A program made the position numbers and the translations under genes. From Eledone cirrhosa (taxonomy: Eukaryota): a stretch of 64,000 nucleotides of DNA. A model generated the notes under the pieces. That model saw nothing but the letters and a program-made list of their open reading frames with translations. It searched no databases and was not told the origin of the DNA. Shown piece after piece: positions 100 to 62,368 of the stretch. Positions within the stretch are counted from its first letter, which is position 1, and every line of letters starts with the position of its first letter. The stretch spans positions 269,948,001-270,012,000 of the forward strand of contig OZ024742.1 in NCBI GenBank assembly GCA_964016885.1, given 5' to 3'.

Positions 100-428
100 T
101 CGCTTCTGAATTTGTTTAGCAAGATTCTTTATCTGAAAACGTGTGTTGAAACCGACATTGTTATGCTGTGGGAGGGTCATGTTGCCAATAAGAAACACAC
201 GCACCAGTTGCTCAAGATGGTGTATGACAGAACAAAGGAGAGGCAAAAAACAAAGAAAATAATCCCCGGTCACTGAAGAGGTCATATAATGTGTGACGAA
301 ATAACTATGACAATATATGAACAACCGTCCGGTTGTGGAACCAACCAACCAACGGGAAATTTATAATAAATTGGAGTGAAACACTGGTGCGTGTGTTTCT
401 CATTGGCAACATGACCCTCGCAAAGCAT
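100..428. mobile_element. Naiad-like PLE mini-remnant with inverted termini
   Basis: ~165-208 is the reverse complement of ~382-426. The body matches 62110-62365 and the reverse complement of 2220-2460. Flanked by (TA)n on both sides. Confidence 0.75.
269..311 (+). ncRNA. Minimal type I hammerhead ribozyme (+1 nt core variant)
   Basis: GTCA-CTGAAGA-G-GTCATAT/aat/GTGTGAC-GAAA-taac-TA-TGAC. Confidence 0.65.
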
Positions 429-508
429 ATATATATATATATATATATATATATATATATATATATATATATATATATATATATATATATATATATATAT
501 ATATATAT
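428..508. repeat. (TA)n microsatellite
   Basis: Pure TA run. Confidence 0.98.
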
Positions 509-1749
509 AATTATAAATATATAAATACACACACATTCGATCATCGTTACACAACCTCCTACGGGACAAGTTCCCGTTTGTGTATGGCCTAGACTTTCTC
601 AGAACCTTCCATTAAATTGTGAAATCGATGTCTGCATCGTTGAGTGACCACATGTGGTTTGCTATCTTCGTGGACGATCGCTTATCCCAGTGTCTACCTA
701 TGTTTTGAGCTCCTGTTGTTGGTTTTGACCAGTAGATAAAACTTCAGGTATGTTACACTTTTGTTTTAGGGTGCATGTTTCTGGGCCTCTGCAAGTACAC
801 CCGACTTGTGTGTTTAAACTGTTTAAATATTTTGACTGGTTCTAGCTGGAACTCTTCTTCGTTGCCTCTGCCTCGTTGCATATATATTGGTGCTTTCTTG
901 AATTTGAAAAAATTAACGTTGGTAATTGTGGCAACGGTGGAACGTCAAATTTGTCTTTGCCTCCCCCAAATACAGTCATGACTTATTCGGAGTTCACATA
1001 CTTGCGTTAAAATATAAACAGAATACACGCAAATGTTATGGATGTCGTTGCTATACATGGGCTAACATTGAAGGGGATATGACATATATACACACACGGA
1101 AGAGATATAGAAAATATATGTCAATATGTCTCGCAACCCATTGCGCAGATTTTGATATCAAAGTAGGCGCATGCTGTTGCTTTATATTGAGTGCACCTGA
1201 GTCGTTCACTTGATTAAGTGAAATTCTGAAGCAAGTATGTATTGACGTTTTAGTGTCAGATACTGTGTTGAACACGCGACGCTCGCTTTCTTAGCTTTCC
1301 ATACTTATATATTCTTTGTTAACTTACTTGCTTAGTTTCAGCTTTCGGTTTCAATGCACTATTGGACTGCTCGCGTGCTGACTTTCTTTCGATTTCTCAC
1401 ATATTTATTCTCTCTATTTTCCATCATATTCCGGCGCAGTGTAGATGTTAACTCTCGACGACAAATATCAACACTGATTGACAAAAAGCAAGCAAATGAC
1501 CCATTATATATAAATATATATAACCGCATATGGTTCACAGGAAAGAGAAATGTGTACTCAATACTAAAGTAGAGTTTAAATATTCATTTTCGTTAGACTA
1601 AAACGTGAGACTTGTTAATCTGGGGTTTCCCCTGTTTATCATGTGGTCATGAAACCAGATATAATGAACATGTGATAAACAGGAGAAACACATAAATGAT
1701 AAAACTCACTTTTACCCTTAATCAATAAGTAGATAAATATATATATGAG

Positions 1750-1920
1750 AATTTGCAGAAAGAGAATTTGCTTCGAAGCCACTAGACGTATCTGAGAAAC
1801 TTGCGAATCCAGAGTCAGTTTCGATCCACAAAAAGATCGAACTCGAGCTGTCCGCCGGAGAAACAATTGTAATACGTAATACATTGTGTTCCGATGCAGC
1901 ACTGATTCTTCGTTTGCCAT
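1750..1920 (-). repeat. Unclassified interspersed repeat, homologous to 19228-19390
   Basis: Its reverse complement shares ttacaattgtttctccggc, agctcgag and aatcagtg with 19240-19310. Confidence 0.6.
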
Positions 1921-1997
1921 ATTATCATATTCTTCTCCGAAGGAGCATAGAGTGCTCAACCGGCATACCGTCCATGGGTGCATCCTAGAAACCATAT

Positions 1998-2152
1998 CAC
2001 ACACACACACACACACACACACACACACACACACACACACACACACACACACACACACACACACACACACACACACACACACACACACACACACTCACAC
2101 GCACACACACGCACACACACACACATATATATATATATATATATATATATAT
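1998..2152. repeat. (CA)n/(TA)n microsatellite
   Basis: Direct. Confidence 0.97.
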
Positions 2153-58957: not shown

Positions 58958-59151
58958 GGGTGGTGGATTGGCGGTATCGGTAGAGAGTCGGACGCCATGC
59001 TTTGACGCATAGAATTACGGCCCTTGCCATTCTGAGTTCAAATTCTTCCGAGGTTAACTTTGCCTTTCATCCTTACGGGGTCGATGAAATAAAGTACCAG
59101 TAAAGCACTGGGTAATTGCTGGCCTTGTGCCACAAGTAGAAACAGTTATTA
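58958..59151 (+). mobile_element. tRNA-derived SINE
   Basis: A and B boxes; 15-bp TSD atgtaatagaaaagt. Confidence 0.92.
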
Positions 59152-59204
59152 ATGTAATAGAAAAGTAACGGCTCTCACTAATATATATATATATATATAT
59201 ATAT

Positions 59205-60860
59205 AGTTTTGCGAGGTTTTTGATATGAAATCGTGTGTCGAAACAAATATTGTTATATTTGGGGAGGGTCGTATTTGTGTAATATTGCCCGAATTAATAA
59301 CCGAACACACTCACTGTTTGGTTGGTTTTAGCTATTCTTCAACCCAGCTGACAAAACATATGAGATGGGTAATATCTATCCTACGAGGTTACCTTTTAAT
59401 AAAATACTTTAACAATAGACTACCTGTATTAGACACGGAACTCTGGATTAACATTATAGACGAGAGAGCCCAAATTCTCCACTCACACTATGCTAAACCC
59501 ATGGCCTCCAAATAACTGATACTCAAAAACTCAGCAATGTCCAGTAGTGCTAAGTTTAATATTCTGATCGAAGATTTGGTAGGAGTGATGAAGAATGTGT
59601 CCCGCATTTGCGACCCAACAGAAATGGAAAGACACATCCGACACTTATCAACTGCATGCAGTTCTCTGGCTACAACCAAACAGACAGATTCAGAGTATAC
59701 GAAGGAGCTATGGAGAAGTATAAGACCCTCATAGAACTGGACATGAAAGGAATTTGCCCATTATACAGGAGCAAATCATGGAATAGCTTAGATAGGGCTA
59801 GACATAAGATAGGGAAAGCCACCTCATGGTACGACAACCATAGATACCAGAGTGTCATGTTTGTGGACGCTACCCCTGGAGAGAAATTAGCTAACCAGTG
59901 TAGAAATGCCCTGAGAAAGACCCACTTAAAGATTAAGGTGGTAGAAAAATTAGGAACCACCATAAAATCCTTGATCAGCAAAACCTACCCTTTTAAGAAA
60001 ATCCACTGTACTAATAGGAAATGTATCATATGTAAGGTAAACCCCCGGATAAACTGTAAAACTAGAAACATAGTCTATAGCATAAGATGTACAGAGGGTA
60101 CTTGCAGAAACATGACAACAACATACATAGGCGAGACAGCTCGTAGCATAGGTGAAAGGATAGACCAACACTGGGGGGAACTAAAGGGACGAAAAAACGG
60201 TTCAATACTATACGAACATGCCAGACAACAACACGACGGTAGGCAAATCTGAGAGGCCAGTGAAATAGAACTTAGAAGGCCAAGGCTAAACAGAATGAAT
60301 GAATGGAATAACAACAACACCCAAACAAACAACACTGACCTAAGAGAAGTATAAATAAATAAATAGATAAATAAATAAATAAATACATACACAAGCACAA
60401 TAACAACAAACACATATAAACACACACTAGTAAAGATAGAATACATTAACCAATTCACAGTCACCCAATCACGAACACAAATCAAACAAAACACTACACA
60501 CGCAAACGCATGCGCAAAGAAGACAAAATAAAATAAACAAATAAATAAACATATAAACAGACTAAATAAAGATGGCGTAGAAAATACAATGCAACGGGAG
60601 GAAACAATATCACCACTGACGATGTTGCAGATGTGCAACGAAAGAACTTTGATAAACTATATATATGTGTTTGTGTCTATATTGTATCTGTATTATCTTT
60701 GACCGTTGGTCAGTCAATGGCAACATTAAGGACCGAATAAATTAGATTACCGATATAAAAGACACAGAAGCGAAAAGCGAAAACGAACCAAACAGTAAAT
60801 GTGTTCTGTTATTAATTCTGGCAATATTACACAAATATGACCCTCCCCAAGCATAAACAA
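59205..60860 (+). mobile_element. 5'-truncated Naiad-like PLE with inverted terminus
   Basis: RLPVLDTELW, HYAKPMAS, SVMFVDATPG, CIIC..NCKTRNIVYSIRC, YIGETARS..HARQQH. 59245-59330 is an inverted copy of 60780-60860. (TA)n on both sides. Confidence 0.9.
60608..60654 (+). ncRNA. Minimal hammerhead (+1 nt variant)
   Basis: CA-CTGACGA-T-GTTGCA/gatg/TGCAAC-GAAA-gaac-TT-TG. Confidence 0.6.
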
Positions 60861-61639
60861 ATATATATATATATATATATATATATATATATATATATAT
60901 ATATATATATATATATATATATATATATATATTTATAAGCAAATAGTAGAGAGGAAAAAGATTTTCTCAGCAGAAAATACTGAAGAGATTATTTCAGTAT
61001 AATAACAAGATAGTTATTTAAAGATGGATATTTTCGCATTTAATAATACCAGTTTCAGCAGTATAAGCTTTTTCAACTGCAGGTACGCATAATGTAATTA
61101 TGTTGCATATTCATATAAATAATGAAAAGGGAAAGGAAACTAATTAGTTTTTACATACATATTTAGAGAGGAGTGTTCATATCTCTGTCCGTGCGTGTCC
61201 TTCGTTCTCTGTTAGTTATATATATATACATATACATACACACATATGTGTGTGTCTATGTGTGTCTCTGTGTGTGTAAACATTAAGTACAAGTAAAGAG
61301 GTTATAATTATCTTCGTTTATTCATAATCGCTGTTATATATAATCCGGTGATATACGTTATGCAACAGCTATGACCTCTTCAGGCAGCTAGAAGTTGAAT
61401 AGAAACAAACAGAAAAACATAAAGATGAAATAAAGCTTACTTTTGTTGTTTCGATTCATTCATATGTTCCGGGCTGATTATTGGTATTGCTTTCTCAAAT
61501 CATCAATTTATTTATTTTGATAGACATACGCCCTACCACTTTTCCGTCTGGCTGAGTTTGTTCAGACCCTCAATGGGTTTTCCTATTCCCGGGAATTTGT
61601 ATTCCATTCATGTTTTCTATTTAATTTTTATTTAATTTT

Positions 61640-62368
61640 GGTTGGAGTTCATTTATGTGTATTGCCTCTGTGATTTGTCTAAACATTGCGTCTTTTCTGT
61701 GTGCGATTCCATTTTTATTTCTATGTTCTCTAATTTACCCTTATGTTCTATTTTAGCATGTTGGTGGAGTACAGCTGATTCTTTACTATCTTGAAGCTCT
61801 CGTCAGTGTTTATTTATCCGTTCTCATATATTACGAGCTGCCTCACCTATGTACACTATATTCTTATCTCTAGATTGTCCTTCAGTACATCTTATGCTAT
61901 ATACTACATTTCTAGTTTTAAAATTAAATAGAAAACATGAATGGAATAGCAACATCACAACTTAAAATTAAGGACAAAATGAAAACACACACACACATAG
62001 AACAAACAACTAACCAGTAACATGTAAATAAACGAATAAATAAACAAATATAAACACACACAGACACCCGGATATAACACATGCGCAAACTAAGCACACA
62101 ACACACACAAAAACAAGATGGCGTAGGACAGAACAAAGGGGTGGCACAAAATCAAAGAAAATAATCCACAGTCACTGAAGAGGTCACATCATGTGTGACG
62201 AAAGAACTTTGACAATATATGAACAATCGTCTGGTTGTGGAACCAACCAACCAACCGGAAATTTATAAATTCCTAAATTTATGAATTTAATTTATAATAA
62301 ATTGAAGTGAAAACGACTGGTACGTGTGTTTCTTATTGGCAACATGACCCTCCCAAAGCATAACAATA
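61640..62368. mobile_element. Inverted pair of Naiad-like fragments
   Basis: Minus strand 61640-61920 reads KTRNVVYSIRC..YIGEAAR. Plus strand 61930-62368 is 3' UTR ending at (TA)n. Confidence 0.85.
62171..62213 (+). ncRNA. Minimal hammerhead (+1 nt variant)
   Basis: GTCA-CTGAAGA-G-GTCACAT/cat/GTGTGAC-GAAA-gaac-TT-TGAC. Confidence 0.68.

What the first reader, a model, noticed from the sequence alone, without database searches (positions are those of the whole stretch)
269..62213. Many different hammerhead ribozymes, one at most PLE 3' ends
Seen: at least 10 type I folds (stem I-CUGANGA-stem II-GAAA-stem III-UH-stem I') with unrelated stem sequences but preserved pairing (269, 3229/7684, 9285, 10494, 16342, 19046, 22926, 27172, 31459, 60608, 62171). 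Each lies within ~250 bp of a (TA)n tract, on the element's sense strand. Known: PLE pseudo-LTRs carry minimal hammerheads. Inference: this density and core diversity means many distinct ribozyme-bearing families, most probably uncatalogued.
Basis: partly seen in the sequence, partly recalled or inferred. Interest (0 to 1): 0.75.

Follow-up and report, generated by a model that had tools for sequence, protein, structure and literature searches.

The report
Hammerheads at many Penelope-element ends
The window holds twelve intact-core and many damaged hammerhead (self-cutting RNA) motifs at the ends of about a dozen different Penelope-like jumping genes, a known pairing that is unusually dense and varied in this genome; they likely cut their own RNA as pairs or with help from the element's protein, which is untested.

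Summary
Confirmed. All 12 named sites carry a type I hammerhead core (10 CUGANGA, 2 the U3:A8 variant). All 12 lie within 250 nt upstream of a (TA)5+ tract on their own strand. A descriptor scan gives 9 hits against 0.13 in shuffles.

The 12 motifs belong to 9 multicopy families in the pseudo-LTRs of Hydra-clade, Neptune-type and Nematis-like Penelope-like elements, on the sense strand. Core positions are conserved across genome copies (0.9% variant cells, against 3.3% in flanks and 8.8% at N7), and stems covary.

A blind 590-kb sample suggests about 1.9e5 dispersed motifs (range 1.2-2.7e5); all fetched loci gave 54 sequence clusters.

Heterogeneity, many families per genome, U3:A8, the 9/10.1 insertion and (TA)n targeting are published (Cervera 2014; Craig 2021). 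This scan already noted long-armed forms on other DNA of this genome. Cleavage is untested. Verdict: new members of a known kind, notable only for scale and long stem II.

The parts
269..311 (+). F1 hammerhead, Nematis-like PLE pLTR; extra G between A9 and stem II; cut after 307
3229..3279 (-). F3 hammerhead, Hydra clade; U10.1-U11.1 mismatch, 4-bp stem III; cut after 3235
   Evidence: (L343)
5164..6340 (-). 5'-truncated Hydra-clade RT-thumb-GIY-YIG ORF of F3 (CxCX5C linker, CxxC..E, CxH)
7684..7734 (+). F3 hammerhead in the inverted arm; cut after 7728
9285..9325 (+). F4 hammerhead, Hydra clade; endonuclease tail at about 8860-9080; cut after 9319
10494..10529 (-). F5 hammerhead, U3:A8 core, CCGG palindrome, in the 3' pLTR of a Neptune-type unit; cut after 10497
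10422..15548 (-). Full-length degenerate Neptune-type PLE: pLTR (damaged hammerhead, core at 15331) - ORF (DKG, CX4CxxC, GIY-YIG) - pLTR; SINE-like insert at 12407-12604
   Evidence: (D16)
16342..16401 (-). F7 hammerhead, Hydra clade; 7-bp stem I, 11-12-bp stem II, 3-bp stem III; cut after 16349
   Evidence: L341; z -3.3
16716..18071 (+). 5'-truncated Hydra-clade ORF of F8
   Evidence: (L347)
19046..19114 (+). F8 hammerhead, 36-nt stem II region, palindromic stem III; cut after 19107
22926..22970 (+). F9 hammerhead, Hydra clade, young family; cut after C22963
   Evidence: L342
27172..27212 (+). F2 hammerhead, Nematis-like; cut after 27206
31457..31504 (+). F6 hammerhead, U3:A8 core, Neptune-type; cut after 31499
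   Evidence: L345
59332..60351 (+). Broken Nematis-like RT-thumb-GIY-YIG ORF of F2
60608..60654 (+). F2 hammerhead; cut after 60649
62171..62213 (+). F1 hammerhead behind a 5'-inverted endonuclease piece (61633-61928, minus); cut after 62209
1785..1878 (+).
10297..10391 (+). Missed: F10b, U3:A8-type core with A6 changed, 56-nt stem II, 4-bp stem III
15880..16005 (+). Missed: F12, 94-nt stem II, damaged core; intact relative in L301
20154..21292 (.). Missed: F10 inverted pair of pLTRs (20154-20356 minus; 21140-21292 plus) around a Hydra endonuclease tail; damaged U3:A8 long-stem-II hammerheads; RT ORF continues 21300-22735
24504..25738 (.). Missed: F11 inverted pair (core near 24646 minus; 25596 plus), 85-nt stem II, damaged here, intact in 23 of 25 genome rows; Hydra endonuclease 25158-25610 (minus)
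23180..24118 (.). Missed: two more F6 copies (core near 23256 minus, damaged; 24034 plus, with a short duplication in stem III)
61040..61390 (-). Missed: U3:A8 motif (core near 61077, weak stem I) and a damaged motif (core 61383)

Best explanation
These are type I hammerhead motifs in the pseudo-LTRs of many different Penelope-like retroelement families inserted into (TA)n tracts, and they likely cut the element's own RNA, most likely as dimers or with help from the element's protein. [quoted passage not shown] Shown: most copies are 5'-truncated ends, often in inverted pairs, so TA-rich stretches collect ends of many families. Inferred: selection acts on the source elements of each lineage, keeping the core and swapping stem letters, while inserted copies decay. 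Inferred: families with only A15.1-U16.1 or a palindromic stem III need two copies of the motif (tandem transcript), whereas F3, F7 and F10 with 3-4 further pairs may cut as monomers. Inferred: the cut trims a tandem transcript to unit length or frees the ORF leader; reverse transcription starts downstream of the motif on uncut or re-ligated RNA, which is why the motif is copied into DNA.
For: Shuffle controls. Strand and distance to TA. Sense vs antisense upstream ORF remnants among loci with a core: F1 14 vs 5 of 29, F2 13 vs 3 of 25, F4 7 vs 3 of 21, F5 4 vs 2 of 25, F6 8 vs 3 of 25, F8 13 vs 5 of 24, F10 6 vs 3 of 15, F11 10 vs 3 of 23; antisense hits fit the inverted arms. Full pLTR-ORF-pLTR units: L341 (F7), L342 (F9, intact 915-aa frame with DKT, CxCX5C, CxxC..E, N..CxH), and the window's 15548-10422 unit. 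In 294 spanning rows of 12 BLAST-collected families: non-majority letters 29 of 3234 cells at the 11 invariant core positions, 26 of 294 at N7, 240 of 7274 in 3' flanks; variants shared by 3+ copies in 0 of 132 core columns, 2 of 12 N7 columns, 15 of 298 flank columns. Two-sided changes in stems I and II and in the C3:G8 pair (CG 4, UA 2) among related subfamilies. Palindromic stem III segments of F3, F5, F6, F7 and F8 co-fold as dimers at -9.7 to -14.8 kcal/mol. Two discrete TA junctions per family (for example F9 at about 84 and 185 nt, F3 at about 60 and 128) fit the PLE tail. Literature.
Against: No cleavage data. Only 2 of the 11 named window motifs folded (3273 equals 7690) have a folding z-score below -2. 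The stem III segments of F1, F2 and F4 give no dimer energy and F9 only -3.7. 5' ends of genomic copies do not pile up at the cut site (1 of 431 alignment starts within 1 nt of it; confounded by how loci were chosen). In the Anolis PLE the hammerhead cuts only with protein, is dispensable for insertion in vitro, and no RNA-seq reads end at the site (PMC11167929 passages); metazoan minimal motifs cut weakly (PMC4209133). Copies were the best BLAST hits, hence related; the covariation sets are small (6-9 rows) and picked by a descriptor that demands pairing. For F3, F7 and F9 the 1.5-kb upstream flanks held almost no own-family ORF; their link rests on 1-2 longer loci each.
Confidence: 0.8

Rival explanations
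1. The fold is kept as a binding platform for the PLE protein (template choice, RT start), and cutting is incidental or slow.
For: Protein-dependent, dispensable hammerhead in the Anolis element; no pile-up of 5' ends at the cut; family-specific stem II from 10 to over 100 nt.
Against: Exactly the catalytic letters, with C3:G8 to U3:A8 swaps and a free N7, are what is kept. In Anolis the protein-binding region was mapped to the first 172 nt of the ORF.
Confidence: 0.15
2. The motifs are parasitic ribozymes or non-autonomous retrozymes riding on PLE ends and do nothing for the PLE.
For: Craig 2021 raise the idea that HHRs parasitise PLEs. Tandem 310-bp and 468-bp hammerhead arrays occur in 3 of 60 blind loci. 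F14 loci showed no own ORF in 20 rows.
Against: In the window the motifs are single and at a fixed place in pLTRs of ORF-bearing elements of three clades.
Confidence: 0.08
3. Chance matches in AT-rich, repeat-rich DNA, multiplied by copying.
For: An A-rich satellite (L316) gave 36 false hits to the U3:A8 descriptor; two loose hits in the window (9766 minus, 27590 plus) look spurious.
Against: Shuffles 0.01-0.93 vs 6-14 hits; 12 of 12 strand-specific placement; core conservation and covariation.
Confidence: 0.01

Closest known systems
[quoted passage not shown]
   Same: Type I, in pLTRs, mostly solo and truncated, high heterogeneity in several consensus families, extra nucleotide between 9 and 10.1, 7-8-bp helix II, U3-A8 variant, palindromic 15.2-16.2, thousands per genome.
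   Different: Estimated number here about 1.9e5 against 2,000-9,000 reported there (different descriptors); stem II regions reach 50-115 nt.
Hydra-clade PLEs and their hammerheads (Craig et al. 2021, PMC8557442; sections 6 and 11, passages, supplement parts 1-2 and searches)
   Same: RW[K/R], DKT, CxCX5C, CxxC..E, N..CxH; (TA)n insertion; hammerheads with U-U closing stem II and 3-4-bp stem III, as in F3.
   Different: File S2 Hydra stem II plus loop is about 11-26 nt by eye; here F8 36, F10 56, F11 85 nt. F10 has a U3:A8 core, seen in no File S2 row. At least 7 Hydra families in one window; units of 4.7-4.8 kb against under 3 kb.
Poseidon element of Anolis, PAc (PMC11167929; passages)
   Same: Hammerhead at the pLTR-ORF junction, internal RT start giving a tail, AT-rich target.
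   Different: Other clade; there the ORF starts inside stem II, here about 260 nt downstream (L342).
Metazoan non-LTR retrozymes (PMC7229834, passages; bioRxiv 10.64898/2026.07.22.740005, part 1 of 5)
   Same: Type I hammerheads, up to 126,247 in axolotl and 16 families in Acropora.
   Different: Those are tandem non-coding repeats; the window's motifs are dispersed pLTR ends (tandem arrays do occur elsewhere in this genome).

Membership tests
Type I hammerhead ribozyme | Core C3-A9 (or U3:A8), G12-A15.1, U16.1-H17 in type I order | tested here: met
   12 of 12
Type I hammerhead ribozyme | Helices I and II around the core, with covariation | tested here: met
   stem I only 2-3 contiguous bp in F2, F5, F6, F9
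Type I hammerhead ribozyme | Helix III as monomer or through a palindromic dimer | tested here: inconclusive
   Dimer energy for F3, F5-F8; weak for F9; none for F1, F2, F4
Type I hammerhead ribozyme | Rfam RF00163 gathering score | tested here: not met
   Best 31.7 bits vs 34; the only hammerhead row among the 150 shown
Type I hammerhead ribozyme | Self-cleavage after H17 | not testable with these tools
   No assay; no RNA run listed
Penelope-like element (C-terminal EN+) | Single ORF with RT then GIY-YIG endonuclease | tested here: met
   L342, L341, L345, L348; Pfam GIY-YIG E 3.7e-4, under cut-off, for 5167-6063
Penelope-like element (C-terminal EN+) | pLTRs, partial tandems, inverted 5'-truncated arms, tail | tested here: met
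Hydra clade (F3, F4, F7-F11) | RWK, DKT, CxCX5C linker, CxxC and CxH around E and N | tested here: met
   All four in F9 (RW plus R) and F7; linker and endonuclease motifs in F3, F4, F8, F10, F11 pieces
Neptune clade (F5, F6) | DKG, CX2-5CxxC linker with long spacer before GIY-YIG | tested here: met
   compared by eye with Fig. S2 rows
Nematis clade (F1, F2) | CX2-5CxxC linker with short spacer; placement in RT tree | tested here: inconclusive
   Spacing matches Fig. S2 Nematis rows by eye; no tree with reference sequences was built
Naiad clade | N-terminal endonuclease | tested here: not met
   The endonuclease is C-terminal wherever RT and endonuclease were seen together; F12 and F14 have no ORF assigned
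Type-SGC permuted hammerhead | Block order S-G-C | tested here: not met
   0 hits in the window on both strands with a simple descriptor
Non-LTR retrozyme | Tandem 150-400-bp units each with a hammerhead | tested here: not met
   Window motifs are single or in inverted pairs

The most novel reading that the evidence does not exclude
This genome carries one of the largest and most varied hammerhead collections known: about 2e5 dispersed motifs in 50-100+ families. Roughly one in six has a 90-115-nt, partly branched stem II that published descriptors would miss. That arm is a family-specific docking site that lets each coexisting PLE protein recognise and switch on only its own ribozyme.
Probability: 0.15. 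Interest if true: 0.65.

Novelty: new member of a known kind. Interest (0 to 1): 0.3.

Why it matters
The pairing of hammerheads with PLE ends is established, so the core finding does not change a field. Three things have practical value. (1) Scale: an estimated 1.2-2.7e5 dispersed motifs would match or pass the largest count in the papers read (axolotl, 126,247, in tandem repeats). (2) A natural library of stem variants around one core, including 55-115-nt stem II arms that short-spacer descriptors miss, so published counts and 'no hammerhead' calls may be too low. (3) A young Hydra family with an intact 915-aa frame and two identical motifs (L342) is a ready system to test what PLE hammerheads do, which is still open.

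Tried and rejected
Rfam at E<=10: only a sub-threshold RF00163 hit; the rest of the shown rows are microsatellite matches to miRNA and snoRNA models. The repeat finder was swamped by microsatellites. Pfam on 11 ORF pieces: only a sub-cut-off GIY-YIG and a weak zf-RVT of use. Sequencing runs: no RNA holder listed, 4 contig sets of one study; laying two of them gave no information on RNA ends. Test for 5' ends at the cut site: no peak, confounded by locus choice and cross-family matches. Type-SGC descriptor: no hit in the window; 3 unconvincing hits in the blind sample. L316 (36 hits, A-rich satellite) was dropped before the density count, and L282, L284 and L331 (28 hits, tandem arrays) were set to zero for the dispersed count. 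Loose hits 9766 (minus) and 27590 (plus) were rejected as chance. My first reading of the CxCX5C elements as Nematis was dropped after reading Craig section 11. MAFFT misaligned stem II in alignment A2, so only stem I and C3:G8 were counted. Searches for print on very long stem II in PLE hammerheads or on cephalopod hammerheads returned only Cervera 2014, Craig 2021, a 2017 review and unrelated papers; subscription papers (for example the Terminon paper cited by Craig) are not searched. File S2 already lists non-canonical PLE-X motifs with long loop II. Supplements of Cervera 2014 were not opened and may list further long-armed forms.
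Full report
Observation. The window is C3:269948001-270012000 of a 3.0-Gb animal assembly, G000. All 12 named sites show a hammerhead core in type I order: ten CUGANGA and two UUGAAAA (10526 minus, 31462 plus). A loose descriptor gave 14 hits, including 11 of the 12, against 0.93 +/- 0.89 in 100 local dinucleotide shuffles; the canonical medium version gave 6 against 0.01; a version allowing long stem II gave 9 against 0.13 in 30 shuffles. A (TA)5+ tract follows within 250 nt on the motif's own strand in 12 of 12 cases and precedes it in 2 of 12; background is 12-19%. 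Rfam shows only 22926-22970, under its gathering score.

Families. Self-comparison groups the 12 motifs into 9 families: F1 (273, 62175), F2 (27174, 60616), F3 (3273, 7690), F4, F5, F6, F7, F8, F9. Each is multicopy. First-look candidates were 1120, 279, 483, 3140, 1963, 423, 537, 91 and 1655, of which only the best 40 were scored, at 84-100% identity; these are not copy numbers. PLE ends that seemed to lack a motif have one in their genome relatives: F10 (U3:A8 core, 56-nt stem II, 4-bp stem III; intact in 13 of 20 spanning rows), F11 (85-nt stem II; 23 of 25), F14 (62-nt; 17 of 20), and F12 (94-nt; one intact relative, L301). In all, about 17 further, mostly damaged loci lie in the window, all but two within 1-32 kb and 59-62.4 kb.

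Host elements. Upstream sense-strand ORF remnants, and longer loci, tie the families to three kinds of PLE with a C-terminal GIY-YIG domain. F3, F4, F7, F8, F9, F10 and F11 carry the Hydra-clade motifs of Craig 2021 section 11. L342 is a whole F9 unit: hammerhead at 936, an open 915-aa frame at 1144-3888, hammerhead again at 5777; 25 of 25 F9 rows are identical over the motif. F5 and F6 are Neptune-type; the window holds a full, broken F5 unit at 15548-10422. F1 and F2 have the short linker spacing of Nematis by eye; no tree was built. The Hydra ORF pieces in the window are only about 33-53% identical to the F7 and F9 proteins, so these are old, separate lineages. F12 and F14 have no ORF assigned. 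Inverted pairs and 5'-inverted pieces (3229/7684; 20154/21292; 24504/25738; 25863/27214; 61633-62365) and two TA junction distances per family match published PLE anatomy. So the motif at a '3' end' is also the leader of the next tandem ORF.

Selection. In 294 spanning rows of 12 BLAST-collected families, non-majority letters are 0.9% at the 11 invariant core positions, 8.8% at N7 and 3.3% in 3' flanks. Variants shared by three or more copies occur in 0 of 132 core columns, 2 of 12 N7 columns and 15 of 298 flank columns (Fisher p about 0.007 for each contrast; copies are related, so the p values are optimistic). Eleven of the 305 rows did not span the motif and were left out. Related subfamilies show two-sided changes: F3 group 2 of 14 pairs, F9 group 3 of 5 including C3:G8 to U3:A8, F1/F2 group 3 of 12; these rows were descriptor hits or window motifs, which favours pairing. 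U3:A8 and the U10.1-U11.1 mismatch are reported as compatible with activity (PMC3088659 passages).

Scale. Sixty evenly spaced 10-kb stretches chosen blind gave 104 hits against 1-4 in five shuffles. I dropped L316 (36 hits, A-rich satellite) and counted three tandem arrays (28 hits) as zero, leaving 40 dispersed hits in 59 stretches: 0.68 per 10 kb (bootstrap 0.44-0.95), about 1.9e5 (1.2-2.7e5) per genome after subtracting false positives. The window, at 9 in 64 kb by the same descriptor, is about twice as dense. Seven of the 40 have a stem II region of 91-115 nt, and 25 of 40 exceed 17 nt. All loci then held gave 421 hits in 54 clusters at 80% identity, some singletons probably false; 390 of 421 have (TA)5+ within 500 nt. 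Chao1 estimates are 36 (blind sample) to about 120 (all loci), both rough. One long-armed group outside the window folds with two helices branching from stem II in 3 of 3 rows, with compensatory letters seen by eye.

Mechanism. Shown: place, strand, conservation, copy structure. Inferred: a tandem transcript is cut after H17, as a dimer where stem III is a bare palindrome (co-folding -9.7 to -14.8 kcal/mol for F3, F5-F8) and perhaps with the element's protein; reverse transcription starts downstream of the motif on uncut or rejoined RNA and inserts in (TA)n. Against a simple role: most motifs do not fold better than shuffles, F1, F2 and F4 show no dimer helix, genomic 5' ends show no peak at the cut, and the Anolis hammerhead is protein-assisted and dispensable in vitro.

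Known or new. Cervera and de la Pena 2014 describe minimal hammerheads in PLE pLTRs, extreme variability within a genome, several consensus families, the extra base after A9, U3-A8 and thousands of solo copies. Craig 2021 add the Hydra clade, its hammerheads and (TA)n targeting. Counts of over 6000 motifs in 16 families (coral) and 126,247 (axolotl) are in PMC7229834. What is left is scale and the very long stem II, which I did not find in print in searches, and which earlier AI notes of this scan report on other DNA of this genome; I had seen it before that look-up. The docking-site idea is worded in those notes too and is untested. The permuted type-SGC form they mention was not found in this window. 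Verdict: real, new members of a known kind; interest 0.3.

Noticed in passing
window 12407-12604, 27819-28011, 36105-36265, 45121-45312, 48858-49042, 58962-59167: Six copies, 73-86% alike, of a roughly 190-bp SINE-like repeat; one interrupts the Neptune-type ORF. Its likeness to an octopus SINE is recalled, not tested.
   Followed up: no
window 3388-5037 and 6360-7200; L343: The F3 element's 3' UTR holds a 1.6-kb mixed TA/CA microsatellite that is copied with the element, also in the inverted arm.
   Followed up: partly
window 16179-16232: Two different families end tail to tail at one TA tract (F12 from the left, F7 from the right).
   Followed up: no
window 33460-56223: Broken non-LTR retrotransposon pieces (RT and AP-endonuclease-like frames in several related copies) in a GC-richer stretch with no long TA tracts and no hammerheads.
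   Followed up: no
window 50352-51274: 93-bp tandem repeat, about 95% identical units.
   Followed up: no
L282:3650-4580, L284:8460-9764, L331:458-9027: Tandem hammerhead arrays with 310-bp and 468-bp units (retrozyme-like); L284 has a unit on the opposite strand next to the array.
   Followed up: no
L317:6745 minus, L325:4866, L323:6996, L032:282: Family group with a 95-104-nt stem II; the three rows folded (L317, L325, L032) branch into two helices, with compensatory letters.
   Followed up: partly
L342:936-5777: Whole young Hydra-clade unit with an intact 915-aa frame; contigs of two DNA-type runs cover its pLTR far more deeply than its ORF.
   Followed up: partly
L352-L371 (F14; window 1785-1878): 2021 first-look candidates but no own ORF in 20 loci; many copies begin shortly before the motif, so F14 may be a non-autonomous element.
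   Followed up: partly
PMC8557442 File S5, 3' ends of two cephalopod Naiads: By eye, GAAA comes before CUGANGA with possible stems I and III, as in the permuted form that other notes of this scan describe; not found in this window.
   Followed up: partly
L316: A-rich satellite of about 270-560-bp units that mimics the U3:A8 descriptor.
   Followed up: no
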